From positions 1,057,554-1,121,553 of the forward strand of contig CBDBCY010000004.1 of the NCBI GenBank assembly GCA_965203555.1: DNA of 64,000 nt, given 5' to 3'. The notes beneath the pieces are model-generated. The model was given only the letters and a program-made list of their open reading frames with translations. It did no database searches and was not told the DNA's origin. Source of the DNA: Acidimicrobiia bacterium. GTDB lineage: Bacteria > Actinomycetota > Acidimicrobiia > Spongiisociales > ZC4RG35. This document shows positions 2,389 through 21,530 of this stretch, one piece after another. The first letter of the stretch is position 1, and the number at the start of each line of letters is the position of its first letter. The position numbers were made by a program, and so were the translations under genes.

Positions 2389-3855
2389 TTATGCCTCGAA
2401 GTCCGGGTAGGTCTGTTTCTTCCGGGCGACGTATTCCTGCAGAGCCTCGTCGACCGCCTCGTCGATCGGCGGCGGTTGATACTCGGCCAGTGACTTCTTC
2501 CACAGGGAGTTGGCCCGCTCCACCGACCGCAGCGACCCTTCCTCCGACCATTGCTCGTAGCTGTTGTTGTCGGCGGTGAACGACCGGTAGAAAGCCGTTT
2601 CGAAATTGGCCAGCGTGTGGGCTGTTCCCAGGTGATGTTGGCCCGGTCCGGTCTCGATCACCGCCTCCAGGGCCTGTCCGTTCTCGGAGAGATCCACCCC
2701 CGACAGCAGCGCCTCGGCCATGCCGCACTGGTCGGAGTCGAGGACGAACTTCTCGTACCCCATCGTCAACCCACCTTCCAGCCATCCCGCCGAATGCAGG
2801 ACGAAGTTGATTCCGGCCAACAGGGTGGGCTGAAAAGTGGCGGCCGACTCGTAGGCGGCCTGGGCGTCGGGAACCTTGGAAGCGGTCAGATTCCCGCCGG
2901 ACCGGAAGGGAATCCCCAACCTCCGACCCAACTGGGCCAGCACGAACAGCGTCAGCGAAGGCTCGGGAGTTCCGAAGGTGGGAGCTCCCGATTGCATGGA
3001 AAGCGAGGAGGCGAACGATCCGAAAATCACCGGCGCTCCCGGCCTGACCAACTGGGTGTAGGACAGGGCCACCAGCGCCTCCGCCAGGGTCTGGGCCGCC
3101 ACTCCCGCCACCGTGACCGGCGCCATCGCCCCGGCCAGGATGAAGGGGGTGATTATTGCCGCCTGGTTCCGCCTGGCGTATTCGCGGGCCGAACCCAGCA
3201 TGGCCTTGTCCCAGGTGAGAGGGGAGTTGGCATTGCACAGCCCCATGATCACCGTGTTCTCTTCCAGGAAGTCCTCCCCGAACACCAGGGCGGCCATCTC
3301 CACCGAATCGGCTGCCCGGTGGGGAGCGGTGACCGAGCCCATCAACGGCTTGTCGGACCACCGAAAGTGGGAGTAGACCATGTCCAGGTGACGTTTGGGG
3401 ATGGGCACGTCCACCGGCTCGCACAATGTCCCCCCGGAGTGATGCAGATAAGGAGTCATGTAGACCAGCTTCACGAAATTCCGGAAGTCCTCGATGGTGG
3501 CATAACGACGCCCTCCGTCGAGATCCCTCACGAAGGGAGAGCCGTAAGCGGGCGCCAGCACCATGTGGTCACCGCCGATCACCACCGACTTCTCGGGGTT
3601 GCGAGCCACCTGGGTGAACATGGACGGGGCGTTGTCGGTCACTATTCGGCGGCACATTCCCCGGGGGAAACGCACCCGCTGTCCCTCGACGTCGGCCCCG
3701 GCCTCACGGAAGGTCCGGACGGCCGGCTCATCGGTTATGTCCACGCCCACCCGCTCCAGAATGGTCTCGGCGTTGTGCTCGATTATCTCCAATCCTTCGG
3801 TGCTGAGCACCTCGTAGGGAGCGAGTTTGCTGGTGAGGAAGGGGGATCTGTTCAT
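2389..3855 (-). CDS. MttB-superfamily (non-pyrrolysine) quaternary-amine:corrinoid methyltransferase (glycine-betaine MtgB-like)
   Basis: …MNRSPFLTSKLAPYEVLSTEGLEIIEHNAETILERVGVDI…ITPFILAGAMAPVTVAGVAAQ…SGAPTFGTPEP…GINFVLHSAGWLEGGLTMGYEKFVLDSDQCGM… is the trimethylamine-methyltransferase (MttB) fold without an in-frame amber codon. Start chosen at ATG 3853-3855 (MNRSPF); an alternative ATG at 3921 (MSRRRR) is possible. Confidence 0.85.
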   Translation of the reverse strand: MNRSPFLTSKLAPYEVLSTEGLEIIEHNAETILERVGVDITDEPAVRTFREAGADVEGQRVRFPRGMCRRIVTDNAPSMFTQVARNPEKSVVIGGDHMVLAPAYGSPFVRDLDGGRRYATIEDFRNFVKLVYMTPYLHHSGGTLCEPVDVPIPKRHLDMVYSHFRWSDKPLMGSVTAPHRAADSVEMAALVFGEDFLEENTVIMGLCNANSPLTWDKAMLGSAREYARRNQAAIITPFILAGAMAPVTVAGVAAQTLAEALVALSYTQLVRPGAPVIFGSFASSLSMQSGAPTFGTPEPSLTLFVLAQLGRRLGIPFRSGGNLTASKVPDAQAAYESAATFQPTLLAGINFVLHSAGWLEGGLTMGYEKFVLDSDQCGMAEALLSGVDLSENGQALEAVIETGPGQHHLGTAHTLANFETAFYRSFTADNNSYEQWSEEGSLRSVERANSLWKKSLAEYQPPPIDEAVDEALQEYVARKKQTYPDFEA

Positions 3856-3913
3856 CTCCTGGGCGGCCGCACGGGCAGCCGCCCGGGCCCGCCGCCCTCC
3901 TGATCTTCTTCTC

Positions 3914-5911: not shown

Positions 5912-6821
5912 CGGCGCCTCGTCCGGTACGCCGCCGACGACCACCTCCCCGCCGGACCCCCCTGCTGCCCGGAGGAGGGGAGGCGCGGTGAGCCCTGATC
6001 CAGCGAGAGCACTCCGGATCATTGGCCATCATCACATCCGCCGCCATCACCGCCGAGCGGACTTCCTGGTGAAGCGGATTGGTTATCGCCGAGGTCAGAC
6101 CGGCGCTGATCGCCATGGTGAGAAAAGCCGAGTTGATGCCCTGCCGGTTGGGAAGGCCGAAGCTGACGTTGGAGGCCCCGCAGGTGGAGTTGACGCCCAA
6201 CTCGTCTCTCAATCGACCCAGGATGCGAAAAACCTGCCGGCCGGCTTGCGCCAATGCACCGATCGGCATCACCAGCGGATCGACCACCACATCGGAAGCC
6301 GGGATGCCGTAGTCGGAGGCGCGGGAAACAATTCTGCGGGCCACCTCGAACCGGACGTCCGGGTCCTCGGAGATGCCCGTTTCGTCGTTGGAAATGGCCA
6401 CCACCGCCGCTCCGTGCTTTGCTACCAGGGGCAACACTCTCTCCATCACTTCATCCTCGCCCGTCACCGAATTGACCAGAGCCTTCCCCTGATACACCCC
6501 CAGCCCGGACTCCAATGCCTCGACGATGGAGGAATCGATAGAGATCGGGACATCGGTGAGCGACTGGACCAGCTTGATGGCCTCGGCCAGGATGGCGGGT
6601 TCATCCGCCAGGGGAATCCCGGCGTTGACATCCAGCATGTGTGCGCCTGCGCCCACCTGGGCCAATGCGTCGGCCTCCACCCGGCTGAAGTCGCCGCTCT
6701 TCATCTCCTGCGCCAACAGCTTGCGGCCGGTGGGGTTGATCCGCTCCCCGATGATCGTGAAGGGCCGGTTCGGCCCTATCACCCACTCCCGGGTGGCGGA
6801 GGAGACGACGGTCTCGGTCAT
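5895..6821 (-). CDS. Methyl-H4folate:corrinoid methyltransferase (pterin-binding, MtrH/AcsE/MtgA-like)
   Basis: MTETVVSSATREWVIGPNRPFTIIGERINPTGRK…GAHMLDVNAG…VPISIDSS…ALVNSVTGE…NSTCGASNVSFGLPNRQGINSAFL is a pterin-binding (DHPS-like) domain. A strong GGAGGAGGAG RBS lies 5' of its ATG. The R-rich C-terminal tail may be overlap read-through. Confidence 0.8.
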   Translation of the reverse strand: MTETVVSSATREWVIGPNRPFTIIGERINPTGRKLLAQEMKSGDFSRVEADALAQVGAGAHMLDVNAGIPLADEPAILAEAIKLVQSLTDVPISIDSSIVEALESGLGVYQGKALVNSVTGEDEVMERVLPLVAKHGAAVVAISNDETGISEDPDVRFEVARRIVSRASDYGIPASDVVVDPLVMPIGALAQAGRQVFRILGRLRDELGVNSTCGASNVSFGLPNRQGINSAFLTMAISAGLTSAITNPLHQEVRSAVMAADVMMANDPECSRWIRAHRASPPPGSRGVRRGGGRRRRTGRGADGRAG

Positions 6822-6836
6822 CTCCTCCTCCCGTGG

Positions 6837-7523
6837 CTAGGCATTGGCGCGTTGCTTTTCGACCAGGGTCTTGGCGGTCTCGGCCGCCACGGCTGCATCT
6901 CGGCAGTAGGCGTCCGCCCCCACCGCCTCGCCGAATTCCTCGTTGAGGGGCGCCCCGCCCACCATCACGATGATTTCCTCCCTGATGCCCTCTTCCTTGA
7001 GAGCGTCGATGACCACCTTCATGTACGGCATGGTGGTGGTCAGAAGCGCCGACATGCCCAGAATGTCGGGGCCGTGCTCCTCCAGCGCCTCCAGGAATTC
7101 CTGGGCGTCGGTGTTGATCCCCAGGTCGAACACCTCGAATCCCGCCCCCTCCAGCATCATGCCCACCAGGTTCTTGCCGATGTCGTGAATGTCTCCCTTG
7201 ACGGTGCCGATCACCACCTTGCCGATCGACTCGACACCCGACGCCGAAAGTATGGGCCGCAGTATCTCCATCCCGGCCTTCATGGCCTTGGCGGCCAGTA
7301 GCACTTCGGGGACGAAGAGGATTCCGTCGCGGAAATCTATCCCCACGATCCTCATGCCCTCCACCAGTGCGTCGTTCAGTACTCTTTGGGCGTCCCAGGA
7401 CCGGGCCAGTAGAATTTCGGTTCCCTCGGCTATCTCATCGGCTAAGCCGTCGTAAAGATCGTCATGCATCTGGTAGACGAGCTCCTCGTCATCAAGAGAA
7501 GCAAGGTCAAAATCTTCGGTCAT
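6837..7523 (-). CDS. Corrinoid (B12-binding) methyl-carrier protein (MtgC/MtbC-like)
   Basis: …GTVKGDIHDIGKNLVGMMLEGAGFEVFDLGINT… carries the DxHxxG cobalamin-binding motif and a Rossmann-like B12-binding domain, with an N-terminal helical cap. AGGTGA RBS 5 nt upstream of the ATG at 7523. Confidence 0.85.
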   Translation of the reverse strand: MTEDFDLASLDDEELVYQMHDDLYDGLADEIAEGTEILLARSWDAQRVLNDALVEGMRIVGIDFRDGILFVPEVLLAAKAMKAGMEILRPILSASGVESIGKVVIGTVKGDIHDIGKNLVGMMLEGAGFEVFDLGINTDAQEFLEALEEHGPDILGMSALLTTTMPYMKVVIDALKEEGIREEIIVMVGGAPLNEEFGEAVGADAYCRDAAVAAETAKTLVEKQRANA

Positions 7524-7621
7524 GATTTCACCTGTTGGAATGAGAAGGCTGGGGCTGATGGGGTTAGGGAACCGAACGGCAAAGAACTCTGACGAAAAAC
7601 CTCACCGTTGCGTCCGGTAGA

Positions 7622-7638
7622 GTTTACGCATTGTAAAC
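7622..7638. promoter_or_regulatory. Palindrome GTTTACgcattGTAAAC in the divergent mtgC / DMGDH intergenic region (candidate operator)
   Basis: Perfect 6-bp inverted arms with a 5-nt spacer. Sits in the 180-bp divergent promoter region between 7523(-) and 7704(+). Confidence 0.3.
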
Positions 7639-7703
7639 GATCCGTGCAACCACACCGACCGCCACAAGAACAATAACCCGTCCTCAGCATAGGGAGTAAA
7701 GAT

Positions 7704-10205
7704 ATGGACTTCCCCACCAGCGCCCATGTAATAGTGATTGGAGCAGGTATTGCAGGTAACTCGGTGGTAGGGCACCTTGCCGAAATGGGCTGGAGGAACA
7801 TTGTTCAAATCGACAAGGGACCTCTTCCCAATCCCGGAGGCTCCACCGGGCACGCCTCCAACTTCTGTTTCCCGGTCGATCACTCCAAGGAGATGACCCT
7901 GCTGACCCTGGATTCCACCAGGCAGTACGATGAGATGGGCGTGATGGTGGTTTCGGGGGGAATCGAGGTGGCCCGCACCCCCGAACGCATGGAGGAACTG
8001 CGTCGCCGCATGACCTCCGCCACGGCCTGGGGAGTCGAGTCGTATCTCATTTCCCCCGACGAAGTGCTCGAACTGGTGCCTTTTATAGACCGCGACGTCA
8101 TTACGGGCGGGTTCTACAGTCCCGGGGTGACGGTGGTCGACTCGCTGCGGGCGGGCACCATCATGCGCGAACGGGCCCAGGCCCTCGACGCCCTCACCGT
8201 GCTGCCCAACACCGAGATTCTGGACATGGAGGTGCGCAACGGCGCCATCCACGCCGTCATAACCGACCGCGGGCGGATAGAAACCGACTATGTGGTGATC
8301 GCATGCGGAGTGTGGAGTCCCCGCATCGCCGCAATGGCGGGGGCCACCATCCCGCTCACACCCGCCGTCCATCAAATGATCGACGTGGGCCCCATCCCGA
8401 TTCTGCAGGAGACTCGTTCGGAGATCGGGTATCCCATCGTTCGCGACATGGACACCTACATGTACGAGCGGCAGACGGCCGGGTCCATGGAGGTCGGCTC
8501 CTATGCCCACCGGCCGATCTTTCACCACCCCGATGACATTCCTTCCCTGGGGGAATCGCTGCTCTCCCCCACCGAGCTTCCCTTCACGGACGAGGACTTC
8601 GACCTGCAGATGGAACATGCCTTGGAATTGATGCCCGAGATCCTCTCGGAGGCCGAGATCCGCTACGCCATCAACGGCCTGCTGTCCCTCACCCCCGACG
8701 CCATGCCTCTTCTCGGAGAGACGGTGGAGGTGAAGAACCTCTGGTCGGCGGCGGCGGTGTGGATCAAGGAAGGCCCGGGGGTGGGAAAGATGGTGGCCCA
8801 GTGGATGACCCAGGGATATCCCGAAATCGATCCACACTCGTCCGACATAGCCCGGTTCTACCGGTTCGCCCGCACCGAGCACCACATCCATGCCCGCTGC
8901 TCGGAGCACTTCAACAAGACCTACGGCATCGTGCACCCCCGGGAGCAGTGGGAGTCCAACCGCAGAGTCCGCACCGTTCCCGCCTACCCGCGGCAGGTCG
9001 AATTGGGCGCCGTGTTCTACGAGGTGGGCGGATGGGAAAGACCCCAGTGGTACGAAGTCAACGCTCCGTTGGTGGAAAAGTACGGGGTCCGGGGGCGCGA
9101 CCACGAGTGGGACGCCCGCTGGTGGTCGCCCGTCATCAACGCCGAACATCTGGCCATGCGGGAGAACGTGGGGATGGTGGACCTCACCGCCTTCGCCATC
9201 TTCGACGTCACCGGACCCGGCGTGGTGGACTACATTCAGAAAATGGCCGTCAACCAGTGCGACGTAGCCGTGGGAAGGGCCGTCTACACCCCGCTCCTCA
9301 CGGAGACGGGGGGCTTTCGCGCCGACCTCACCATCCTCCGACTCGCCAAGCTGCACTATCGGGTGATCAGCGGCGGGGGCGACGGCGCCCGGGACCGCTA
9401 CTGGTTCCGCAAACATCTGCCCGAAGACGGGTCGGTCACTTTCGTGGACAACACCTCGGCCGTCTCCACGGTCGGTCTGTGGGGCCCGAATGCTCGCCGG
9501 GTAATAGAGAGCCTCACAGCCGACGACGTTTCAAACGAAGGATTCCCGTACGGATCGGTCAAAGAGGTCGACCTGCAGGGCATCGATGCCCTGATGTTCC
9601 GCATCTCCTATGTGGGGGAACTCGGATGGGAGATTTCGGTACCCATGGAACAGGGACTCCGCTTGTGGGACATGCTGTGGGAAGCCGGCCAGGACTGGGG
9701 AGTGGTGCCGGTGGGCATCGGAGTGTACGGGACCACCGGGCGGCTCGAGAAGGGATACCGGCTGATGGGGGCCGAGTTGGAGTCGGAGTACAACCCGGTG
9801 GAAGCCGGGCTTGCCCGGCCCAAGGTGAAGAAAGCCGACTTCATCGGCAAGGGTCCCTACCTTGCAGCCCGCCGGGAGGATCCGGCCACAATCCTTTGCA
9901 CGCTAACGGTCGAGGACCACACCTCGGCGTCGGGGATCGAACGGTACATGGGAGGCAACGAGCCGATCCTCACCCCCGACGGCGAGCGCATCACCGACAG
10001 TCACGGCCGTGCATCCTATGTCACCACCGCCGGCAACGGCCCTTCGGTGGGCAAGTACCTGCTGCTGGCATACCTGCCCCCGGCCCACGCGGTGGTCGGC
10101 CGGGAGTTGGCGGTTATGTACATGAACGAGTTGTACCCGGTGAAGGTGGCGGTGGCGGGCAGCACCCCGCTGTTCGATCCGCAGAACGCCCGGATGAAGT
10201 GCTGA
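7704..10205 (+). CDS. Dimethylglycine/sarcosine dehydrogenase family (FAD oxidoreductase plus GcvT-like folate-binding aminomethyltransferase domain)
   Basis: N-terminus VIVIGAGIAGNSVVGHLAE is a GxGxxG FAD site. The C-terminal half (…GELGWEISVPMEQGLRLWD…) is a glycine-cleavage-T-like fold. AGGGAG RBS 7 nt upstream. TGA stop is 1 nt from etfB's ATG. Confidence 0.9.
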   Translation: MDFPTSAHVIVIGAGIAGNSVVGHLAEMGWRNIVQIDKGPLPNPGGSTGHASNFCFPVDHSKEMTLLTLDSTRQYDEMGVMVVSGGIEVARTPERMEELRRRMTSATAWGVESYLISPDEVLELVPFIDRDVITGGFYSPGVTVVDSLRAGTIMRERAQALDALTVLPNTEILDMEVRNGAIHAVITDRGRIETDYVVIACGVWSPRIAAMAGATIPLTPAVHQMIDVGPIPILQETRSEIGYPIVRDMDTYMYERQTAGSMEVGSYAHRPIFHHPDDIPSLGESLLSPTELPFTDEDFDLQMEHALELMPEILSEAEIRYAINGLLSLTPDAMPLLGETVEVKNLWSAAAVWIKEGPGVGKMVAQWMTQGYPEIDPHSSDIARFYRFARTEHHIHARCSEHFNKTYGIVHPREQWESNRRVRTVPAYPRQVELGAVFYEVGGWERPQWYEVNAPLVEKYGVRGRDHEWDARWWSPVINAEHLAMRENVGMVDLTAFAIFDVTGPGVVDYIQKMAVNQCDVAVGRAVYTPLLTETGGFRADLTILRLAKLHYRVISGGGDGARDRYWFRKHLPEDGSVTFVDNTSAVSTVGLWGPNARRVIESLTADDVSNEGFPYGSVKEVDLQGIDALMFRISYVGELGWEISVPMEQGLRLWDMLWEAGQDWGVVPVGIGVYGTTGRLEKGYRLMGAELESEYNPVEAGLARPKVKKADFIGKGPYLAARREDPATILCTLTVEDHTSASGIERYMGGNEPILTPDGERITDSHGRASYVTTAGNGPSVGKYLLLAYLPPAHAVVGRELAVMYMNELYPVKVAVAGSTPLFDPQNARMKC

Positions 10206-10206
10206 G

Positions 10207-10968
10207 ATGAATATCCTGGTCTGTGTCAAGAGAGTGCCCGCCCCCGGGGCTCGGATCGTCCTGACCGACGACGCCCAGCAAATCGACACCCGGCATCTGG
10301 GTTTCACCACCAGCCCTCACGAAGAGTGCGCGGTGGAAGCCGCTGTCCAATTGAAGGAGAGGCACGGGGGGACCACCACCGTTCTCACCCTGGGACCGTC
10401 CGAAGCGACCGAACAACTACGCTATTCCGTCTCGGTCGGGGCCGACCGGGTGGTGCTGGTACCCGCCGACACCACCGAGTTGGACCCGCAGGCCACCGCC
10501 TCGGCCCTGGTGGACGCGATAGCGGAACTGGAGGCCGAGTCTGCATTCGACCTGGTCCTGTTCGGCAACGAGTCGGCGGATTCGGGAGGGTACCAGGTGG
10601 GTATCAGGGTGGCCCGCGCCCTGGGCCGTCCCGTCATCAGCGGATTGAAGGGGATCGAAATAGACGGTGACCACATGGTGGGAAGAAGGGAGACCGATGA
10701 GGGATTCGAGGTCTACCGTCTACCCCTCCCGGCCGTGGCGACCGCCAAGGAGGGAATAACCCTCCCCCGCTATCCCACCCTGCCGGGCCGTCTGAAGTCC
10801 CGAAGGGCGCAGATCGCCGAGGTGACGGTTGATTTCTCACCGGGAGGCCAGGAGATGGTCCACCTGTTGAAACCGGTGGAAGAGGTCACCGAGACAATCA
10901 TATTGGGTCATGGAGCGGACGCCGCCCCCCGGGTGGTGCGACTGTTGGAGGAGGTGGGTTTGCTATGA
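10207..10968 (+). CDS. etfB: Electron transfer flavoprotein beta subunit
   Basis: MNILVCVKRVPAPGARIVLTDD…LVLFGNESADSGGYQVG… is a typical EtfB. Overlaps etfA by ATGA. Confidence 0.9.
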   Translation: MNILVCVKRVPAPGARIVLTDDAQQIDTRHLGFTTSPHEECAVEAAVQLKERHGGTTTVLTLGPSEATEQLRYSVSVGADRVVLVPADTTELDPQATASALVDAIAELEAESAFDLVLFGNESADSGGYQVGIRVARALGRPVISGLKGIEIDGDHMVGRRETDEGFEVYRLPLPAVATAKEGITLPRYPTLPGRLKSRRAQIAEVTVDFSPGGQEMVHLLKPVEEVTETIILGHGADAAPRVVRLLEEVGLL

Positions 10969-11942
10969 GCCTCATCCTGGTTTTCCTGGACAATGACCGT
11001 GGTTCCCTGTCCCCCTCGGGGCCCGAGTCGCTCACACCCGCCCTCGAACTGGCCGCCGCCCTGGGCGCCCGGTTGGAGACGGCCACCGTCGGCGAAGCGG
11101 GCCGCGCCGCCCTGGAACAGTTGGGCCTGCCCGGACACGTCGTCTCCCACCCCGTCCTGTCGGACTACGCCCCCGAGGCCTACGGCGAGGCCCTTGCCCA
11201 GTTGGCGAACCACGCCGGGGCCTCGGTGCTGATGGCCCTGGGCGACGATCGGGGCGCCGAGGTAATGGCTCACGTCGCCGCCGTCCTGGAGGAGCCCCTG
11301 GTCGCCAACGTCACCGAGATCGTGGACGTTTCGCAGGGAACGGCGGGCGCCTGGGAGATGGTCCGGGTGAGGTGGGGAGGAAGTCTCCTCGAAAGAGCCC
11401 GACTGCAATCATCCCGAAAACTGCTGACCGTCGCTCCTCACACCTTCGCCCCGCCCGAGTCGGCCATGGGCGTTTCGACGGCGGCGAACACCTTCGTGCC
11501 GGACATACCGGACCATCTCGCCCGCACCCGGGTGGTGGAAAGAGTCCGCCTGGCGGAAGGGCTGACCCTCGCCACCGCGCCGGTGGTCGTCAGCGGGGGA
11601 AGAGGCGTGGGCAGCGCCGAAAACTTCGCCATTTTGGAGGAGTTGGCCGACTTGGTGGGCGGAGTGGTGGGGTGCTCGCGGGTCGCCACCAACAACGGAT
11701 GGAGGCCCCACTCCGATCAGGTGGGACAGACCGGCACCCGTATCGCTCCCGACCTCTACATCGCCTGCGGAATCTCCGGCGCCGTGCAGCACTGGGTCGG
11801 ATGCATGGCGTCGAAGCAGATACTGGCTATCAACACCGATCCCGAGGCGCCCCTGGTCACCAAGGCTGACTACGCCGTCATCGGAGACCTCCACGAGGTC
11901 CTGGCGGCGATCATCGCCGAAATCAGGACCCGAATCTCATAG
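10965..11942 (+). CDS. etfA: Electron transfer flavoprotein alpha subunit
   Basis: …VVVSGGRGVGSAENF…PDLYIACGISGAVQHWVGCMASKQILAINTDPEAPLVTKADYAVIGDL… carries the EtfA FAD-binding C-terminal signature. Confidence 0.9.
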   Translation: MSLILVFLDNDRGSLSPSGPESLTPALELAAALGARLETATVGEAGRAALEQLGLPGHVVSHPVLSDYAPEAYGEALAQLANHAGASVLMALGDDRGAEVMAHVAAVLEEPLVANVTEIVDVSQGTAGAWEMVRVRWGGSLLERARLQSSRKLLTVAPHTFAPPESAMGVSTAANTFVPDIPDHLARTRVVERVRLAEGLTLATAPVVVSGGRGVGSAENFAILEELADLVGGVVGCSRVATNNGWRPHSDQVGQTGTRIAPDLYIACGISGAVQHWVGCMASKQILAINTDPEAPLVTKADYAVIGDLHEVLAAIIAEIRTRIS

Positions 11943-12183: not shown

Positions 12184-13407
12184 GTGACCGCCGACGGCGA
12201 CGGGCTGATACGCTTGGAGAACATCTACAAGATCTTCGGACCCCAGCCACAGGGAAGGGCATTCGAACTCACCAAGTCAGGACTCAGCAAGGATGAGGTC
12301 CTGCGGCACTCGGGTCATGTGGTAGGCCTCAACAACGTCAATTTCTCGGTCAACAAAGGTGAGATTTTCGTGGTCATGGGCCTGTCCGGATCCGGCAAAT
12401 CCACCGCGCTCCGCACTGTCAACAAGCTCCTGACCGCCACCCACGGGCAGGTTTGGGTGGCGGGAACGGACGTGCAGACCCTGGACGGCAACGAGTTGCA
12501 GGCCTTCCGGCGAGAGAAAATGGGCATGGTGTTCCAGCATTTCGCCCTGTTCCCTCACCGGTCGGTGATCGAGAACGTGGGGTACGGGCTCAAGATACAG
12601 AAAATGTCGAGGAGTGCGCGGAATGCCGCCGCCATGAAGGCCCTGTCCCTGGTGGGGCTGAAGGACTACGCGAAATACTATCCCAAGAATTTGTCGGGTG
12701 GAATGCAGCAGCGGGTGGGTCTGGCCCGGGCGCTGGCGTCCGACCCCGACATCCTCCTGATGGACGAGGCGTTCTCCGCCCTCGACCCCCTGATTCGACG
12801 CCAGATGCAGGACGAGATGATGGAGATACAGAACGCCCTTCGCAAGACCATCTTGTTCATAACCCACGATCTGAACGAGGCGTTGCGCATCGGCGACCGG
12901 GTGTGCATCATGAAAGACGGGGCGGTGGTGCAGATCGGGACTCCCGAGGAGATTCTCACCAAACCGGCCACCGGCTATGTCGCCGAATTCGTCCAGGACG
13001 TCGACCAGGGCAGAGTCATCAAGGTCGACGACGTGATGAGCACACCGAAACCCATAAAGCTGAGCATGTCCCTGTCGGCGGCCATCACCCACCTGGGCGA
13101 GCGGGCCGGAGCGTTCGTCGTGGACGATCGAGGACACCCCACCCATCTGCTGACCATCGGAGACGGGATGCGGACCGCCGGCATGGGCACCAAAAACCTG
13201 AAAGCGGCGCTGCGCCAGGACTTCGACACCGTCCCGTCGGAGACTCATCTGAACGATGTCTACGCGGCGGCGGGCCGGGGGTTGCCCATTGCGGTGGTCG
13301 ACGAGGCCGACGCCTTGATCGGCAACCTCGATCCCCGCAAGATAATGGAGGAGATGGGCAGAGTGGAACGTCTGATCGATGACTACGAGCGAGAGGTGTT
13401 CATGTGA
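12184..13407 (+). CDS. proV: Glycine betaine/proline ABC transporter ATP-binding protein with C-terminal CBS domains (ProV/OpuAA)
   Basis: Walker A GLSGSGKST, LSGGMQQRVGLARAL signature, Walker B ILLMDEAFSALD, and a CBS-pair-like tail. GTG start preceded by GGGAGGAG. Its stop overlaps the proW start (GTGA). Confidence 0.9.
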   Translation: MTADGDGLIRLENIYKIFGPQPQGRAFELTKSGLSKDEVLRHSGHVVGLNNVNFSVNKGEIFVVMGLSGSGKSTALRTVNKLLTATHGQVWVAGTDVQTLDGNELQAFRREKMGMVFQHFALFPHRSVIENVGYGLKIQKMSRSARNAAAMKALSLVGLKDYAKYYPKNLSGGMQQRVGLARALASDPDILLMDEAFSALDPLIRRQMQDEMMEIQNALRKTILFITHDLNEALRIGDRVCIMKDGAVVQIGTPEEILTKPATGYVAEFVQDVDQGRVIKVDDVMSTPKPIKLSMSLSAAITHLGERAGAFVVDDRGHPTHLLTIGDGMRTAGMGTKNLKAALRQDFDTVPSETHLNDVYAAAGRGLPIAVVDEADALIGNLDPRKIMEEMGRVERLIDDYEREVFM

Positions 13408-15524
13408 AGTATTTAGGACCGATCCTCGCCCAGGCCGAAGGGGCGGAGGAGCCCCTGCGATTCTGGGACAACGCGGTGCTCGACTCGTGGGAGATCCCCT
13501 TCGGTTCCTGGATTGACGAGATGGTGGCTTGGGTGGTCGCCAACCTCGAGACCCTGCTGGACGTCATCAAATGGCCCTTCGCGTTCCTGTTCCGCAACTT
13601 CGTCATCAGTCCCGAATACCATCCCTGGTGGGAGTTGACGGACATGTCCTGGGTCCTGGTCTGCGGCATAGTGCTGGTGGTCGGGACACTGGTCCGCAAC
13701 CTGAAGGTGGGAGTGGGCCTGGCCTTGATGCTGGCCCTCTGCGGGCTGCTGGGCAACGAGTTCTGGGAGGAGACCGTCCTCACCATCGGCCTGGTGGTGG
13801 TCTCGGTGGTGATCTGCGCCGTGATCGGCATTCCCCTGGGGGTACTCTGCGGCCGCGTGGACGGAGTGTGGAACGCGGTGCGGCCGGTCCTCGACGCCAT
13901 GCAGGTGGTGCACTCCTTCGTCTACATCATTCCGTTCATCTTCTTCTTCGGGCTGGGACCGGAACCGGCCACCATGGTGACCATGGTGTTCGCCATACCC
14001 CCCTTGATACGGCTCACCAACCTGGGAATCCGCCAGGTCCCCGGCGATGTGGTGGAGGCGAGCCGCGCCTACGGCGCCACCGAGTGGCGGGTGTTGATCG
14101 ACGTGCAACTCCCGCTGGCCCGCCCCGCCATCATGACCGGGCTCAACCAGACCCTGCTGCTTTCCATATCGATGATCGGCATCGCCGCCATCATGGGCGC
14201 CAGCGGGCTGGGGCTTCTGGTGTTCCGGGCGGTCGTCAACGTCGACACTCCCCTCTCGGCCTCGGCAGGGCTGGCCCTCTTCATAGTGGCGGTGGTGCTG
14301 GACCGCATCTCCCAGACCCAGTCCGACGAGGGCGCCAATCTGATAACCCGTATCTACCGGGCCTGGGCTCATCGGCGCGACCCCGAACTGCTGCTGGATG
14401 ACAGCCAGGTCTCCTCGGTGCAGGCCGAGACTCCCGCTCCGGAAGGCACTCCGGCGCTGGTGGCGCCCAGGGAGCGCACCGGCGTGCTGATCGCTCTGGC
14501 CGGTTCGACGCTGGCGGCGATTTCGGTGTTCCTGCCCTGGGGAGAGAACTCGGGCCTTATCTCCGGATATAGCCGCGCCGCCGACTTGGATCTGGCCGGT
14601 TCGAGTTTCAACGGTCTGTCGGCCGCCGGGGGCAGCTACTACGGCTTGGCCGTGCTGGGAATGAGTCTGCTGGTGATTGGTTCGGCGGTGACCACCCTCA
14701 CCCGTCCCGGCAGGATAGCCCGCTGGTTCGGCGCCGACGGCGCCCTCATGTTCGCGGCGGGAAGCGTGATGGCCGCCCTCACCTATCTGTGGATAGACCC
14801 GTCGGCAGAGGCCGCCGCCTATGGGGACGGCATCGGAGTCTGGCTGGCGGTGGCAGGTGGGATCATCAGCATCCTGGGAGCGGTGATGTGGATCGGAGGC
14901 GCGCCTTACAGCCCGCTTCGCCCGCTGAAAGCCACCGTCTCTGTCAGCCGCATCGTCATTTCGGTAGCCGTAGTCGGCATGCTGGCGGTGGCGGGCCTGT
15001 CCTCCTGGTCGGTGGACTCGAGAGCGGAAGCGGTGATCACCCCCGAATTGCAGGCCGAGATCGATCGACTGGAGAAAGAAGCCCGAGAAGACCCGGCACA
15101 GGCAGGACTCAACGCTATCAGTATCGCCACCCTGGTCGCCGAGGCGCAGCGAAAGAACCCTGTGATCGTCGACGGGTACACCGGTCCTCGCCTGGGACAA
15201 CTGGCTCTGTGGCTGGGAGTGGTCGGAATCCTGGTCGGCCTTCCGGCCGCCGGCGCATTCGGGAGCAATGAACGGAGGCGCTGGGTGTGGAGCGTGGGAG
15301 TCGCGGCTCTCGGAGTGGGCATCATGGTGGCGTCGGGGGGGTGGATCGCCTCCCTGGTTCGTGCTTCCGATGCCAATTTCGTCAGCGGTCCCGGTGCATT
15401 TCTGTGCTTGCTGGCCGGATTCCTCCTGTTCATCTCCCCGCGCAGCGTTCTGAGAGAGTTCCGGCGCACCAAGGTATTCGCCGGAGACAAGGGACTGATG
15501 GATAAGGCGGAGAGTCCAGCATAG
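13404..15524 (+). CDS. proW: Glycine betaine ABC permease (ProW/OpuAB) with ~400-aa C-terminal multi-TM extension
   Basis: The first ~300 aa are a canonical ProW-type permease (…YIIPFIFFFGLGPEPATMVTMVFAIPPLIRLTNLGIRQVP…). A further ~400 aa of hydrophobic helices plus a coiled segment (ITPELQAEIDRLEKEARED) follow in the same frame with the same codon bias. Confidence 0.85.
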   Translation: MKYLGPILAQAEGAEEPLRFWDNAVLDSWEIPFGSWIDEMVAWVVANLETLLDVIKWPFAFLFRNFVISPEYHPWWELTDMSWVLVCGIVLVVGTLVRNLKVGVGLALMLALCGLLGNEFWEETVLTIGLVVVSVVICAVIGIPLGVLCGRVDGVWNAVRPVLDAMQVVHSFVYIIPFIFFFGLGPEPATMVTMVFAIPPLIRLTNLGIRQVPGDVVEASRAYGATEWRVLIDVQLPLARPAIMTGLNQTLLLSISMIGIAAIMGASGLGLLVFRAVVNVDTPLSASAGLALFIVAVVLDRISQTQSDEGANLITRIYRAWAHRRDPELLLDDSQVSSVQAETPAPEGTPALVAPRERTGVLIALAGSTLAAISVFLPWGENSGLISGYSRAADLDLAGSSFNGLSAAGGSYYGLAVLGMSLLVIGSAVTTLTRPGRIARWFGADGALMFAAGSVMAALTYLWIDPSAEAAAYGDGIGVWLAVAGGIISILGAVMWIGGAPYSPLRPLKATVSVSRIVISVAVVGMLAVAGLSSWSVDSRAEAVITPELQAEIDRLEKEAREDPAQAGLNAISIATLVAEAQRKNPVIVDGYTGPRLGQLALWLGVVGILVGLPAAGAFGSNERRRWVWSVGVAALGVGIMVASGGWIASLVRASDANFVSGPGAFLCLLAGFLLFISPRSVLREFRRTKVFAGDKGLMDKAESPA

Positions 15525-15659
15525 GACGGGGTGAAGGCCGGACCTTGATCGACAGACGCAGACCCGACACACAAGCATATGAGAGGACATTTGAAACAAA
15601 CCAGGCATAGGAAAACAACCCAGGCATGGGATTGAAGAAAGATCCCAGAAGGAGAAAAC

Positions 15660-17861
15660 ATGAAAAGGAATACCAAGATCAGATACCTGGTGGCGCTGCT
15701 TTCGGTGCTCGCCCTCCTGGCTACGGCCTGTGGAGACGATGAGGCCGATGCCCCCTCGGCAACCCCGACTACCGCCCCGGCCGCGGAGACTCCCGATGAC
15801 GCCATGGACGATGACGCCATGGACGATGACGCCATGGACGACGACACCATGGACGATGACACCATGGACGATGACACCATGGACATGGGCGACGACATGG
15901 CGCTGCCGGGTGAGGGTGTGTCGGTGACGATGGCCCGGGCCAACTGGTCGACCGGTTATATGCAGGCTGCTATCTATGCGTCGTTGCTGGCCGAGTTGGG
16001 CTATGATGTCTCCGACCCGGCCGATCTGGAGTTGGCGCCGTCCAACGCCTATGTGGCGATGGCCAACGGCGAGTTCGACTTCTGGGTCAACTCGTGGTTC
16101 CCCAACCACAACCAGTTCCTGGCCGGTGAGATGCCCGACGGATCGCTGGTCTCCGAGCACGTGACCACCCTGGGCAAAGAGATGGCCCTGGCCGGCGTGC
16201 AGGGGCTGATCACCAACAAGGCGTTCGCGGCAGAGAACGGGGTGACCACCCTCGACGCCCTGCTGTCCGATCCCGATCAGTTCGCTGCCTACGAGGCGGC
16301 GGACGCCTCTCCCGGTGACGGCATCCTTCAGATCATGGGATGCCCCGAGGGATGGGGTTGTCGAGTCAACATCGACGCCTGGATCGAGAACGCCGGCTGG
16401 ACCAACATCGAGCAGTTCGACATCGGAGGCTACGACGCCATGATCGCCGATGCCATCGCCCGTGACGCAGCCGGAGAGCCCTACATGGTCTACACGTGGG
16501 CGCCCAGTCACTACGTCAAGGACCTGCGACCCGGCGACAACTCGATCTGGCTGTCCATCTCCGACGAGTCGATCTCTCCCACCCAGATCGAAGGTCCCAA
16601 GTCGCTCGGCGGCTCGTGCACCACCGATAACTGCAACCTGGGCTGGGACGCAGCCGACATTTTGGTGACCGGCAACAACGACTTCCTGGCCGCCAACCCG
16701 GCCGCTGCCCGACTGTTCGAACTGGTGACCATCAACCCAGTCGACGTGACCCTCCAAAACGTGGCCTACAGCCTCGGAGAGGACACCGAAGACGACATCA
16801 AACGCCACGCCGCCGAATGGATCGCCGCCAACCGCGACACCGTCGACGCCTGGCTCCACGCCGCCAAGCAGCCGATCAACCTGACCCCGGGTGAGGGTGT
16901 GTCGGTGACGATGGCCCGGGCCAACTGGTCGACCGGTTATATGCAGGCTGCTATCTATGCGTCGTTGCTGGCCGAGTTGGGCTATGATGTCTCCGACCCG
17001 GCCGATCTGGAGTTGGCGCCGTCCAACGCCTATGTGGCGATGGCCAACGGCGAGTTCGACTTCTGGGTCAACTCGTGGTTCCCCAACCACAACCAGTTCC
17101 TGGCCGGTGAGATGCCCGACGGATCGCTGGTCTCCGAGCACGTGACCACCCTGGGCAAAGAGATGGCCCTGGCCGGCGTGCAGGGGCTGATCACCAACAA
17201 GGCGTTCGCGGCAGAGAACGGGGTGACCACCCTCGACGCCCTGCTGTCCGATCCCGATCAGTTCGCTGCCTACGAGGCGGCGGACGCCTCTCCCGGTGAC
17301 GGCATCCTTCAGATCATGGGATGCCCCGAGGGATGGGGTTGTCGAGTCAACATCGACGCCTGGATCGAGAACGCCGGCTGGACCAACATCGAGCAGTTCG
17401 ACATCGGAGGCTACGACGCCATGATCGCCGATGCCATCGCCCGTGACGCAGCCGGAGAGCCCTACATGGTCTACACGTGGGCGCCCAGTCACTACGTCAA
17501 GGACCTGCGACCCGGCGACAACTCGATCTGGCTGTCCATCTCCGACGAGTCGATCTCTCCCACCCAGATCGAAGGTCCCAAGTCGCTCGGCGGCTCGTGC
17601 ACCACCGATAACTGCAACCTGGGCTGGGACGCAGCCGACATTTTGGTGACCGGCAACAACGACTTCCTGGCCGCCAACCCGGCCGCTGCCCGACTGTTCG
17701 AACTGGTGACCATCAACCCAGTCGACGTGACCCTCCAAAACGTGGCCTACAGCCTCGGAGAGGACACCGAAGACGACATCAAACGCCACGCCGCCGAATG
17801 GATCGCCGCCAACCGCGACACCGTCGACGCCTGGCTCCAGACCGCCCGCCTGGTCGGCTAA
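15660..17861 (+). CDS. proX: Glycine-betaine-binding lipoprotein with two tandem, identical ProX/OpuAC substrate-binding domains
   Basis: Signal peptide plus lipobox (LLATACG), then an acidic DDAMD/DDTMD repeat linker. The SBD sequence (…WFPNHNQFLAGEMPDG…GCPEGWGC…) occurs twice with 100% identity. Confidence 0.85.
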   Translation: MKRNTKIRYLVALLSVLALLATACGDDEADAPSATPTTAPAAETPDDAMDDDAMDDDAMDDDTMDDDTMDDDTMDMGDDMALPGEGVSVTMARANWSTGYMQAAIYASLLAELGYDVSDPADLELAPSNAYVAMANGEFDFWVNSWFPNHNQFLAGEMPDGSLVSEHVTTLGKEMALAGVQGLITNKAFAAENGVTTLDALLSDPDQFAAYEAADASPGDGILQIMGCPEGWGCRVNIDAWIENAGWTNIEQFDIGGYDAMIADAIARDAAGEPYMVYTWAPSHYVKDLRPGDNSIWLSISDESISPTQIEGPKSLGGSCTTDNCNLGWDAADILVTGNNDFLAANPAAARLFELVTINPVDVTLQNVAYSLGEDTEDDIKRHAAEWIAANRDTVDAWLHAAKQPINLTPGEGVSVTMARANWSTGYMQAAIYASLLAELGYDVSDPADLELAPSNAYVAMANGEFDFWVNSWFPNHNQFLAGEMPDGSLVSEHVTTLGKEMALAGVQGLITNKAFAAENGVTTLDALLSDPDQFAAYEAADASPGDGILQIMGCPEGWGCRVNIDAWIENAGWTNIEQFDIGGYDAMIADAIARDAAGEPYMVYTWAPSHYVKDLRPGDNSIWLSISDESISPTQIEGPKSLGGSCTTDNCNLGWDAADILVTGNNDFLAANPAAARLFELVTINPVDVTLQNVAYSLGEDTEDDIKRHAAEWIAANRDTVDAWLQTARLVG
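15795..15887 (+). repeat. 18-bp tandem repeat (gatgacRccatggac x~5) encoding a (D-D-A/T-M-D-D) acidic Met-rich linker
   Basis: Read directly: gatgacgccatggac x3 then gatgacaccatggac x3, in frame within proX after the lipobox. Confidence 0.7.
15907..17840 (+). repeat. Perfect tandem duplication, period 981 bp (2 x ~953 bp identical)
   Basis: Track sub-ORFs recur exactly 981 bp apart (15976/16957, 16049/17030, 16450/17431, 16511/17492). The sequence from ccgggtgagggtgtgtcggtgacg… to …gacgcctggctcca is identical in both copies. The copies diverge only in the linker (16860-16887) and the gene 3' end. Confidence 0.8.
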
Positions 17862-17969: not shown

Positions 17970-19064
17970 GTGTCAGTCATGTCCAATAGCTTCGGCACAA
18001 GGCTGACTGTCGGGTTGGCTGCGTTGGTACTGGTAACGGCGTCCTGTGCATCCGAAAGCCCCGACACCGACGCCCGAGAGATGCTGCCGGGTGAAGGCGT
18101 GTCGGTAACCATGGCAAGGGGGAACTGGTCGACCGGTTATATGCAGGCCGCTATCTACGCAGCCTTGCTGACTGAACTGGGCTATGAGGTAAGCCGTCCG
18201 GCTGACCTGGAATTGCCTCCCTCCAACGCCTACGTGGCCATGGCCAACGGCGAATTCGACTTCTGGGTCAACTCCTGGTTCCCCAACCACAACCAGTTCC
18301 TCGCCGGAGAGATGCCCGACGGCACCTTGGTGGGTGACCACCTGACGGTGCTCGGTTGGGAGATGCGCACCGGTGGCCTGCAGGGCGTCCTTACCAATAA
18401 GGACCTTGTGACAGAGCACGGAATAGAGACGCTCGACCAGATCGTGAACGATCCCGCCCTGTTCACGATCTTCGAGGAGGGCGATACCCATCCTGGCGAC
18501 GGCACACTCCAGTTGCTGGGATGCCCCGAGGGATGGGGATGTCACATAACCATCGACGCCTGGATCGAAAACGCGGGTTGGGAGAAGGTCGAGCAACTGG
18601 AGGTTGCTTCCTACGACGTCCTGATCGCCGAGGCCATCTCCCGGGACTCCGCCGGCATTCCGTACATCGTCTATTCCTGGGCCCCCAGTTCGTATGTGGC
18701 CGACCTGCGCCCGGGCGACAATGCCATCTGGCTGTCCACATCCCACGAGTCGATCTCCCCCAGCCAGACGGAAGGCCCGTCCACCCTGGAGGCGGGAGAG
18801 TGCTCCACCGACTCCTGCAACCTTGGGTGGGACGCAGCCGACATCCGCGTCACGGCCCACAACGATTTCCTGGCCGCCAATCCCGCCGCCGCTGCCCTCT
18901 TCGAGTTGGTGGTGATCAGCCCGATCGATGTTGCTTTGCAGAACGTTGCCTACGGCCTGGGCGAAAACACCGAGGACGACATCCACCGCCACGCTGCCGA
19001 ATGGATCGAAGGCAACCGCGACACAGTTAACCAATGGATCGCCGCTGCAAGGAGCGCAGGCTGA
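17970..19064 (+). CDS. Glycine-betaine-binding lipoprotein, single-domain paralog of proX (~75% aa identity)
   Basis: Lipobox LVTASCAS, then MLPGEGVSVTMARGNWSTGYMQAAIYAALLTELGYEV…WFPNHNQFLAGEMPDGT…GCPEGWGCHI…, colinear with each repeat unit of proX. Confidence 0.85.
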   Translation: MSVMSNSFGTRLTVGLAALVLVTASCASESPDTDAREMLPGEGVSVTMARGNWSTGYMQAAIYAALLTELGYEVSRPADLELPPSNAYVAMANGEFDFWVNSWFPNHNQFLAGEMPDGTLVGDHLTVLGWEMRTGGLQGVLTNKDLVTEHGIETLDQIVNDPALFTIFEEGDTHPGDGTLQLLGCPEGWGCHITIDAWIENAGWEKVEQLEVASYDVLIAEAISRDSAGIPYIVYSWAPSSYVADLRPGDNAIWLSTSHESISPSQTEGPSTLEAGECSTDSCNLGWDAADIRVTAHNDFLAANPAAAALFELVVISPIDVALQNVAYGLGENTEDDIHRHAAEWIEGNRDTVNQWIAAARSAG

Positions 19065-21211: not shown

Positions 21212-21530
21212 AGAGGGTGTGACAAAACACCCCGCATATTGCTAAGTTGTGAAAACAAACACTAAAACTTTTCCGCAAGAATCCACCTCATAGTTCGACT
21301 GCTGCCGAGGGGTGACCACCCGGCAACCCCGCACACAGATACCGGGGGAACTCCAGTGATCTTGCAAAACCGAACCAATACGAGTGGAAATTCATGTAGA
21401 ATTGCAGACGTAGATCGTTCCGAGGAACCGGCGCCTATCAACCCCCGAAGATCGTTCGGAAGTCGGTTCCGGGAAGTCTTGACCACAGGCCTCACAGGCC
21501 ACCCTTTACATAAGGACGGCGTTACCTGCC

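What the first reader, a model, noticed from the sequence alone, without database searches (positions are those of the whole stretch)
15907..17840. Perfect 981-bp tandem duplication creating a two-SBD ProX lipoprotein, with a third diverged paralog downstream
Two ~953-bp blocks are 100% identical (offset 981 bp) inside one ORF. The result is a lipoprotein with two identical betaine-binding domains joined by a short linker. A third copy (17970-19064) is ~75% identical at aa level, so the locus has undergone repeated substrate-binding-domain amplification.

Perfect identity means either a very recent duplication, ongoing gene conversion, or an assembly artefact.
Basis: seen in the sequence. Interest (0 to 1): 0.55.

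Follow-up and report, generated by a model that had tools for sequence, protein, structure and literature searches.

The report
Two-domain betaine-binding lipoprotein kept identical by recombination
The perfect 953-bp repeat is real, but it is an old fusion of two betaine-binding domains that recombination keeps rewriting to identity, and the same pattern appears in about forty related sponge-associated bacterial species.

Summary
Window 15906-16858 and 16887-17839 are 100% identical (953 bp, offset 981) inside one ORF (15660-17861, 733 aa). That ORF encodes a lipoprotein with two ProX/OpuAC domains, in a proV-proW-proX operon.

It is not a fresh duplication. The 28-bp linker between the copies matches neither flank, and it is conserved in 10 related species that differ from the window by 14-16% at the DNA level. 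A related linker occurs in 14 more species.

Forty-six tandem pairs were found in Acidimicrobiia genomes, many of them complete chromosomes. In 38 pairs the two domains are closer to each other than to any ortholog (p about 0-0.02 against 0.07-0.29). Ten loci have zero mismatches over 905-961 bp.

Repeat edges keep position-specific differences that are shared across species. Some species show mosaic tracts. The third paralog (17970-19064) diverges normally and groups with its orthologs.

This is concerted evolution of an ancient two-domain fusion by gene conversion or unequal exchange. The Trp cage of E. coli ProX is intact in both domains, and the neighbouring genes encode glycine betaine demethylation.

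The functional benefit of two identical domains is inferred, not shown. The window's own reads could not be checked.

The parts
12184..13407 (+). proV, ABC ATPase of the betaine/proline/choline family
   Evidence: PF00005, TIGR01186 proV at 375 bits, weak CBS hit
13404..15524 (+). proW permease (706 aa), core plus a C-terminal multi-TM extension of about 386 aa
   Evidence: PF00528 at residues 142-301; ProW and ChoW models match below their cut-offs. The extension is conserved in 62 of 63 Acidimicrobiia loci that hold proW, tandem or single SBD
15660..17861 (+). proX2: one ORF encoding a lipoprotein with two identical ProX substrate-binding domains (733 aa)
   Evidence: P0002 is the identical protein, recorded on a 3.14-Mb contig
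15660..15731 (+). Signal peptide with lipobox (…LLATA-C24)
   Evidence: Read from the translation. The Cys is conserved in the homolog alignment. No dedicated predictor was run
15794..15884 (+). 15-bp tandem repeat x6.1 encoding an acidic, Met-rich (DDAMD/DDTMD)n tether
   Evidence: (family D5)
15906..16858 (+). Repeat copy 1 = SBD1 coding core
   Evidence: E. coli ProX 1R9L E = 1.3e-34, with Trp65/Trp140/Trp188 conserved
16859..16886 (+). Unique 28-bp inter-domain linker (…H-AAKQPINLT-PGEG…), the ancestral junction
   Evidence: Matches neither flank. Conserved in 10 clade-A species in protein; blastn matches 87-91% over 23-27 nt in four of five close relatives tested
16887..17839 (+). Repeat copy 2 = SBD2 coding core, 100% identical to copy 1
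17840..17861 (+). C-terminal tail (QTARLVG) and stop codon; conserved tail motif ARL[VAIT]G
17970..19064 (+). proX3: separate single-SBD ProX lipoprotein, a diverged paralog that is not being converted
   Evidence: NF008334 217.7 bits. 73.7% nt identity to the repeat, longest exact run 26 nt. Its nearest neighbours are the third copies of other species, p = 0.164-0.168
2389..11942 (.). Adjacent glycine betaine demethylation genes: MttB-family methyltransferase (2389-4008, -), pterin-binding methyltransferase (5895-6821, -), corrinoid protein (6837-7523, -), DAO+GCV_T dehydrogenase (7704-10205, +), ETF beta/alpha (10207-11942, +)
   Evidence: Pfam hits

Best explanation
proX2 is an old, inherited gene for a lipid-anchored substrate-binding protein with two ProX-type domains in tandem. 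It serves the adjacent ProV/ProW ABC importer.

The two 953-bp domain-coding halves lie 28 bp apart. Homologous recombination between them, by gene conversion and/or unequal sister-chromatid exchange, repeatedly overwrites one with the other. They therefore stay identical at synonymous sites too, while the gene as a whole diverges between species. This is concerted evolution.

Homogenisation stops where homology stops, at the linker and at the N- and C-terminal flanks. The third paralog, proX3, has fallen to about 74% DNA identity and has escaped this process.

Function is inferred. Both domains bind glycine betaine or a close quaternary amine through the conserved Trp cage. They feed an uptake system coupled to betaine demethylation. 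Two binding sites per anchored molecule would raise the local SBD concentration at the translocator. Persistence of a deletion-prone perfect repeat in dozens of species implies selection for the two-domain state.
For: 1) The repeat is exact over 953 bp, but the 28-bp junction matches neither flank.

2) The junction is homologous across species. The clade-A motif [HE]xA[KQM]QPI[NS][LM]T occurs in 10 species and AxAxxP[VP]xxT in 14 clade-B species. blastn matches the linker at 87-91% in four of five close relatives whose operons are otherwise 70-88% identical and syntenic.

3) In 38 of 46 tandem pairs, within-genome D1-D2 distance is below the distance to the nearest ortholog. Two of the eight exceptions are duplicate contigs of a single MAG. 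Ten loci have 0 mismatches over 905-961 bp, six of them in assemblies titled chromosome or complete sequence.

4) In the core (nt 13-915), within-genome p is 0.016 (clade A) and 0.006 (clade B) against 0.12 and 0.21 between genomes, with D1vD1 = D2vD2 = D1vD2. At the clade-B 3' edge, within-genome D1vD2 is 0.315, higher than between-genome D1vD1 (0.201) and D2vD2 (0.262). So the edges follow position and the core follows genome.

5) Partial tracts occur: L072 has a diverged 5' half and an identical 3' half, only the first 80 nt of L006 differ, and L003 and L005 are mosaic.

6) D1 differs from its nearest orthologs at 77-90 synonymous codons out of 318, but from D2 at none, so protein-level selection cannot explain the identity.

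7) Internal control: proX3 groups with the third copies of other species.

8) In related genomes, non-adjacent copies are identical (1018-1174 bp, 0 mismatches, 2.4-3.5 kb apart) while the adjacent copy differs by 5-11%.

9) Function: ProX equivalog hits, a conserved 1R9L Trp cage, and a betaine-catabolism neighbourhood.
Against: No reads were available, so the copy number and exact identity in this assembly are unverified. The window's sequencing technology is unknown, and short-read assemblers or polishing can homogenise near-identical repeats. One public contig (L078) made only of this repeat shows that assemblers do mishandle it.

Gene conversion cannot be separated from cycles of unequal crossing-over (2 to 3 to 2 copies) with these data.

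A single origin is shown only for clades A and B. Other clades have linkers of different length, which may reflect independent fusions.

The functional advantage of two identical SBDs is pure inference. The AlphaFold model of the full protein was unusable (pLDDT 44).
Confidence: 0.85

Rival explanations
1. A very recent tandem duplication of one SBD-coding segment in this lineage, too young to have accumulated differences.
For: 100% identity over 953 bp with head-to-tail arrangement.
Against: A simple duplication of a 981-bp unit would give at least 981 identical bases and a junction built from the unit's ends. Here 28 bp are unique. The same junction and architecture occur in 10 to 24 other species that are 14-25% diverged. 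Recent independent events in about 40 species with the same boundaries are not credible.
Confidence: 0.03
2. Assembly artefact: the assembler duplicated a single SBD, or collapsed two slightly different SBDs into one consensus written twice.
For: Perfect repeats are a classic assembler problem. L078 is a 12.4-kb 'circular, 0x' contig consisting only of 12.7 copies of this unit, mostly frame-broken. No reads could be examined.
Against: An assembler does not invent a 28-bp in-frame linker that is homologous to the linkers of other species. The two-SBD gene occurs in many records titled chromosome or complete sequence and in independent short-read MAGs. Chromosome-level assemblies show both 0 and up to 59 mismatches between copies, so copies are not being forced to identity. 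The window's protein lies on a 3.14-Mb contig.
Confidence: 0.07
3. Homogenisation occurs by copy-number cycling through unequal sister-chromatid exchange (2 to 3 to 2 units), not by copy-number-neutral gene conversion.
For: Identical direct repeats 28 bp apart are good substrates for unequal exchange. Three-unit intermediates would retain the linker. Some relatives carry extra copies, such as the whole tandem gene duplicated in L036 with 2320 bp perfect identity.
Against: No genome-resolved locus shows three SBDs in one ORF; the only multi-copy array is the suspect L078. Identity between non-adjacent copies in different genes, with a diverged copy between them (L023, L031), requires non-reciprocal conversion. 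Both mechanisms may contribute.
Confidence: 0.25
4. The two domains are kept identical only by strong purifying selection on the protein sequence, without recombination.
For: ProX domains are well conserved, with many invariant residues.
Against: Synonymous sites are identical too. D1 and D2 have 0 synonymous differences, against 77-90 synonymous codon differences to the nearest orthologs and third-position p = 0.28-0.30.
Confidence: 0.01

Closest known systems
E. coli ProX, periplasmic glycine betaine/proline betaine-binding protein of ProU (PDB 1R9L/1R9Q)
   Same: Each repeat unit aligns end to end with it (E = 1.3e-34). It keeps Trp65, Trp140, Trp188, His69 and the Cys136/Cys142 pair, and it sits in a proV-proW-proX operon.
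   Different: Here two such domains lie in one polypeptide, lipid-anchored through a long acidic tether in a monoderm actinobacterium. The neighbouring genes point to catabolism rather than osmoprotection.
Lactococcus lactis OpuA (two SBDs per complex, each fused to a TMD)
   Same: It is a betaine ABC importer of the OpuAC family in which two identical SBDs work next to one translocator. The SBDs act cooperatively and interact transiently at millimolar local concentration (PMC11065425).
   Different: In OpuA the two SBDs are identical because the subunit is a homodimer and each is fused to its TMD. Here they are two copies in one separate lipoprotein gene. A stop codon and a 135-nt gap lie between proW and proX2, and proX2 has its own signal peptide.
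GlnPQ-type importers with tandem SBDs (L. lactis, streptococci)
   Same: Two substrate-binding domains in tandem on one polypeptide, joined by a short linker.
   Different: From my own knowledge, not tested here: GlnPQ SBDs belong to a different SBP family (PF00497), are fused to the permease, and have diverged in sequence and specificity. The present SBDs are unfused and kept identical.
Concerted evolution of bacterial duplicates and of near-identical tandem domain repeats in surface proteins (for example tufA/tufB, rRNA operons, 'periscope' repeat proteins)
   Same: Paralogous copies within a genome are more alike than orthologs between genomes. Homogenisation depends on recombination and stops at the edge of homology. 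The named examples are from my own knowledge.
   Different: The unit here is a whole 318-aa ligand-binding domain of a transporter component. Copy number is fixed at two across dozens of species instead of varying. The held literature gave no report of this for ABC substrate-binding proteins.

Membership tests
ProX / OpuAC substrate-binding protein (PF04069; NCBIfam NF008334 ProX) | Significant full-length match to the family models | tested here: met
   PF04069 E = 1.2e-55 with two stretches. NF008334 427.9 bits against a cut-off of 215, two stretches.
ProX / OpuAC substrate-binding protein (PF04069; NCBIfam NF008334 ProX) | Aromatic cage for the quaternary ammonium group (Trp65, Trp140, Trp188 of E. 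coli ProX; the role of these residues is from my own knowledge) | tested here: met
   The alignment to 1R9L places W at all three positions in each domain (W146/W232/W280 and W473/W559/W607). All are invariant in 17 homologs.
ProX / OpuAC substrate-binding protein (PF04069; NCBIfam NF008334 ProX) | Actual binding of glycine betaine or proline betaine | not testable with these tools
   Needs ITC or fluorescence titration of the purified protein.
ProU/OpuA-type ABC importer operon | Adjacent ATPase (ProV) and permease (ProW) genes on the same strand | tested here: met
   proV 12184-13407 (TIGR01186, 375 bits) and proW 13404-15524 (PF00528; ProW and ChoW models match below cut-off). The order is syntenic in five close relatives.
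Bacterial lipoprotein | Basic N-region, hydrophobic core, lipobox ending in Cys | tested here: inconclusive
   MKRNTKIRYLVALLSVLALLATA-C24 fits the lipobox pattern by eye. The Cys is conserved in homologs (…AAACGDD, …VAGCGND). No signal-peptide predictor was available.
Tandem-SBD ABC importers of the GlnPQ type | Two or more SBDs in one polypeptide | tested here: met
   Two complete domains at residues 83-400 and 410-726.
Tandem-SBD ABC importers of the GlnPQ type | SBDs covalently fused to the transmembrane domain | tested here: not met
   proW ends with a stop at 15524. proX2 starts at 15660 with its own signal peptide.
Concerted evolution by gene conversion or unequal exchange | Paralogous copies within a genome are more similar than orthologous copies between genomes | tested here: met
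   True for 38 of 46 tandem pairs. For the window, p = 0.001 against 0.136 to the nearest ortholog.
Concerted evolution by gene conversion or unequal exchange | The duplication predates the species splits (shared junction, position-specific flanks) | tested here: met
   The linker and tail are conserved in clades A and B. At the clade-B 3' edge, same-position copies from different genomes are more alike than the two copies within one genome.
Concerted evolution by gene conversion or unequal exchange | Patchy or mosaic tracts and identity at synonymous sites | tested here: met
   Mismatch maps for L003, L005, L006 and L072. There are 0 synonymous differences between D1 and D2, against 77-90 to the nearest orthologs.
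Concerted evolution by gene conversion or unequal exchange | Direct observation of conversion events, or dependence on RecA | not testable with these tools
   Needs population long-read data or genetics.
Simple recent tandem duplication | Junction composed only of the ends of the duplicated unit; absent from relatives | tested here: not met
   The 28-bp junction is unique and is present in related species.

The most novel reading that the evidence does not exclude
In sponge-associated Acidimicrobiia the ProX domain behaves as a recombining cassette. Conversion homogenises SBD modules within the tandem gene, and in some genera also between separate genes, such as the tandem ProX and a ProX-BMP fusion 2.4-3.5 kb away. 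Selection holds the tandem gene at exactly two identical binding domains because paired SBDs improve scavenging of host-derived betaines. If so, this is a natural, phylogenetically replicated experiment on why ABC importers multiply their binding domains.
Probability: 0.35. Interest if true: 0.7.

Novelty: new variant of a known kind. Interest (0 to 1): 0.55.

Why it matters
Studied tandem substrate-binding domains, as in GlnPQ, are fused to the permease and have diverged in specificity. Here is a free, lipid-anchored protein whose two binding domains have been held identical for a long evolutionary time in dozens of species.

This gives a clean, replicated example of intragenic concerted evolution in bacteria, with visible tract boundaries and a non-converted paralog as an internal control.

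It also raises a testable question about transporter design: does doubling identical SBDs on one tether raise capture rate or give cooperativity, as reported for OpuA?

In practical terms, perfect kilobase repeats in these genomes should not be 'fixed' as assembly errors. Short-read MAGs may also miscount or collapse them.

The genomic context of betaine demethylation genes, and the sponge-symbiont taxa, link the feature to nutrient exchange in the holobiont.

Tried and rejected
- AlphaFold2 of the full 733-aa protein with a 17-sequence alignment gave pLDDT 43.9 and pTM 0.30. It is unusable, so no fold search was run.
- The look-up of encoding contigs found no record for the window's exact protein, although P0002 is identical. 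The source contig could not be inspected.
- The listing of cluster members gave no accession or name.
- TRF cannot see the 981-bp period because its maximum period is 500.
- Literature searches for concerted evolution or gene conversion of tandem SBDs found nothing relevant. One search was badly posed, since it required only one of the terms.
- Deep position-specific sites in the core were sought across species. Almost none survive; there are 8 concordant sites, only between the close pair L005/L006. This fits thorough homogenisation but gives no extra proof of a single origin.
- I tested whether the ProW C-terminal extension goes with the tandem SBD. It does not, because single-SBD loci have it too.
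- P0001/L078, with at least 4 and then 12.7 copies, was considered as evidence for natural copy-number expansion. I rejected it as a probable assembler product: the contig is named '0x' and circular, and most units are frame-broken at 980 bp.
Full report
**1. The observation**

A direct-repeat scan and an offset-981 self-comparison show that window 15906-16858 and 16887-17839 are identical at all 953 positions. The copies are separated by 28 unique bases (16859-16886).

Both copies lie in one ORF, 15660-17861 (+), 733 aa. The ORF carries two PF04069 OpuAC stretches. It scores 427.9 bits against the NCBIfam ProX equivalog NF008334, whose cut-off is 215.

Its N-terminus, MKRNTKIRYLVALLSVLALLATA-C24, reads as a lipoprotein signal. 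The Cys is conserved in homologs. No predictor was run.

A 15-bp repeat (x6.1, 15794-15884) encodes an acidic, Met-rich tether between the lipobox and the first domain.

The downstream paralog, 17970-19064, is a separate single-domain ProX. It is 72% identical in protein and 73.7% in DNA to the repeat unit.

The genes immediately upstream are proV (12184-13407) and proW (13404-15524).

**2. Not a fresh duplication**

A simple tandem duplication of a 981-bp unit would leave at least 981 identical bases and a junction made from the unit's own ends. Here the 28-bp junction differs from both the sequence before copy 1 and the sequence after copy 2.

It encodes …WLH-AAKQPINLT-PGEG…. The first residues resemble the C-terminal tail (WLQTARLVG*), and the last residues resemble the segment before domain 1 (MAL-PGEG). 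So it looks like an old, diverged fusion joint.

**3. Relatives**

A protein search found the identical protein on a 3.14-Mb contig (P0002), plus dozens of 640-790-aa homologs at 43-89% identity that cover both domains. Within each of these proteins the two domains are 86-100% identical to each other. Only more distant proteins have 56-72%.

A scan of one genome per species returned 77 loci, all from Acidimicrobiia MAGs. Many are named Candidatus Spongiisociaceae, Spongiisocius or Poriferisocius, and many are titled chromosome or complete sequence.

At the DNA level, 45 loci contain an internal direct repeat with an offset of 978-1080 bp and 84-100% identity. Ten have zero mismatches over 905-961 bp. 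Six of those ten are chromosome-level records.

Single-domain loci (L050-L077) belong to more distant Acidimicrobiia.

**4. Evidence for concerted evolution**

*Within-genome versus between-genome distance.* In a codon alignment of 155 domain copies, D1 and D2 of the same genome are nearest neighbours in 38 of 46 tandem pairs. Two of the eight exceptions are duplicate contigs of one MAG. Within-genome p is mostly 0-0.02. The closest ortholog lies at 0.07-0.29. For the window the values are 0.001 and 0.136.

*The junction is inherited.* Ten clade-A species share [HE]xA[KQM]QPI[NS][LM]T. Fourteen clade-B species share AxAxxP[VP]xxT. The tail motif ARL[VAIT]G* is also conserved. blastn matches the window's linker at 87-91% over 23-27 nt in four of five close relatives. 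In those relatives the rest of the operon is syntenic and diverged:

| Segment | nt identity to the window |
|---|---|
| proV | 77-81% |
| proW core | 82-88% |
| proW extension | 70-73% |
| SBD | 84-86% |
| proX3 | 75-82% |
| ech | 78-82% |

*Core and edge give incongruent signals*.

| Region | Clade | Within-genome D1vD2 | Between-genome D1vD1 | Between-genome D2vD2 |
|---|---|---|---|---|
| Core, nt 13-915 | A | 0.016 | 0.122 | 0.123 |
| Core, nt 13-915 | B | 0.006 | 0.207 | 0.208 |
| 3' edge, nt 916-954 | B | 0.315 | 0.201 | 0.262 |

In the core there is no positional signal, because D1vD1, D2vD2 and D1vD2 between genomes are equal. At the clade-B 3' edge the two copies within one genome differ more than same-position copies from different genomes. 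The edge therefore tracks position and the core tracks genome.

*Mismatch maps show tracts.* In most species the differences sit only in the first ~10 and last ~40 nt. L006 differs only in the first 80 nt. L072 has a diverged 5' half and a perfect 3' half. L003 and L005 are mosaics.

*Synonymous sites.* D1 differs from its nearest orthologs at 77-90 synonymous and 32-40 nonsynonymous codons out of 318. Within the 953 bp it differs from D2 at none. Protein-level selection therefore cannot explain the identity.

*Control.* proX3 groups with the third copies of L005, L006 and L022 (p = 0.164-0.168). It shares at most 26 consecutive identical bases with the repeat, so it evolves as an ordinary ortholog.

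*Conversion between non-adjacent copies.* In Poriferisocius-type genomes, D1 of the tandem gene is 100% identical over 1018-1174 bp to the SBD of a downstream ProX-BMP fusion gene 2.4-3.5 kb away. The adjacent D2 differs by 5-11% (L023, L031). Tandem duplication cannot produce this. Non-reciprocal conversion can.

*Contrast.* Very distant tandem ProX proteins (P0146, P0191) have 40-43% identical domains, which is the ordinary fate of an old domain duplication.

**5. Assembly artefact?**

I could not see reads, so the copy number and exact identity in this particular assembly remain unverified.

Three points argue against an artefact:
- An assembler cannot invent an in-frame linker that is homologous to those of other species.
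- The architecture recurs in about 40 independent assemblies.
- Chromosome-level assemblies show anything from 0 to 59 differences between copies, so they are not being forced to identity.

One public contig (L078, 'ctg51003_0x_c') consists solely of 12.7 copies of the 980/981-bp unit, and most units break the reading frame. I regard it as an assembler product and not as evidence for natural expansion.

**6. Function (inferred)**

Each domain aligns end to end with E. coli ProX (1R9L, E = 1.3e-34). It keeps Trp65, Trp140, Trp188, His69 and Cys136/Cys142. These positions are invariant in 17 homologs. That these residues form the betaine cage is my own knowledge.

Upstream lie these genes:
- an MttB-family methyltransferase
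- a corrinoid protein
- a pterin-binding methyltransferase
- a DAO+GCV_T dehydrogenase of the dimethylglycine/sarcosine type
- ETF beta and alpha subunits

Non-pyrrolysine MttB homologs are known glycine betaine methyltransferases, and such genes are expressed in sponge microbiomes (PMC9999580). The transporter therefore probably feeds betaine catabolism.

Why two identical domains? In L. lactis OpuA, two identical SBDs next to one translocator act cooperatively and meet at about 4 mM local concentration (PMC11065425). A tandem lipoprotein would give the same local doubling without fusion to the permease.

A perfect 953-bp direct repeat should be prone to recombinational deletion, which would leave an in-frame single-SBD gene. 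Its persistence across dozens of species in two orders suggests selection for the two-domain state. None of this is shown.

**7. Comparison and novelty**

The parts are known:
- ProX/OpuAC binding proteins
- ABC importers with tandem SBDs (GlnPQ)
- concerted evolution of bacterial duplicates and of repeat domains in surface proteins

The combination seems undescribed in the searched literature. It is a free, lipid-anchored, two-SBD binding protein. Copy number is fixed at two, and the domains are kept identical by recombination across a whole symbiont radiation.

I rate it a new variant of a known kind, of moderate interest. The open points are:
- conversion versus unequal exchange
- one origin or several across clades, since linker lengths differ
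- the functional pay-off

**8. Dead ends**

- The AlphaFold model was unusable.
- The source contig could not be retrieved.
- The ProW C-terminal extension is not linked to the tandem state.

Noticed in passing
window 13404-15524 (residues ~321-706 of ProW): ProW carries a C-terminal extension of about 386 aa with several hydrophobic segments and no Pfam hit. It is conserved (24-68% aa identity to the window's) in 62 of 63 Acidimicrobiia loci that hold proW, whether the SBP is tandem or single. Its function is unknown.
   Followed up: partly
window 15794-15884: A 15-bp tandem repeat (x6.1) encodes a (DDAMD/DDTMD)n acidic, Met-rich tether after the lipobox. Clade-B relatives have EEAQMALEEA-type helical repeats at the same place instead, so the tether is replaced while the SBDs are conserved.
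   Followed up: partly
window 15594-15631: A 19-bp unit (AAACAAACCAGGCATAGGA) occurs twice in tandem in the relatively AT-rich proW-proX2 intergenic region. It may be a regulatory site.
   Followed up: no
window 2389-11942: A betaine demethylation cluster: MttB-family methyltransferase, corrinoid protein, pterin-binding methyltransferase, DAO+GCV_T dehydrogenase and ETF beta/alpha, directly upstream of proVWX.
   Followed up: partly
window 48000-57300: GC content drops from about 0.64 to 0.50-0.52. The genes here include a SIR2-like protein (51933-53336, -) next to a HerA/DUF87 ATPase (49705-51918, -) and an SNF2-family helicase (53955-57269, +). This looks like an acquired anti-phage defence island.
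   Followed up: partly
window 19980-21278 (-): A DUF222 + HNH endonuclease gene lies just downstream of the proX3-enoyl-CoA hydratase pair. Genes of this kind are often associated with mobile elements in actinobacteria.
   Followed up: no
L078 1-12427 (ENA ERZ25068833 ctg51003_0x_c): A whole contig consists of 12.7 head-to-tail copies of the 980/981-bp SBD+linker unit, 86% identical to the window's unit. Most units are 980 bp and frame-broken. This is probably an assembler product of the repeat.
   Followed up: yes
L023 5852-7025 vs 8257-9430; L031 6012-7029 vs 8466-9483; L032, L027: In Poriferisocius-type genomes, SBD1 of the tandem gene, together with its upstream tether and the start of its linker, is 100% identical to the SBD of a downstream ProX-BMP (PF02608) fusion gene. 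SBD2 between them differs by 5-11%. This indicates inter-gene conversion and domain shuffling among binding proteins.
   Followed up: partly
L036 3867-9463: Five SBD copies in a row (2+2+1). The whole tandem gene is duplicated with 2320 bp of perfect identity.
   Followed up: partly
L014 and L043 (both OZ243930.1, ~230 kb apart): A single-SBD ProX elsewhere on the same chromosome is only 2.1-2.6% different from the tandem SBDs. This points to long-range conversion or a recent dispersed copy.
   Followed up: no
proteins P0125, P0140, P0163, P0179, P0215: Many ProX-family cluster representatives are 1000-2000 aa long, with the ProX domain at the C-terminus of large multidomain proteins. Some homologs carry SLH or LRR domains. 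This is an unusual architectural diversity for a binding protein.
   Followed up: no
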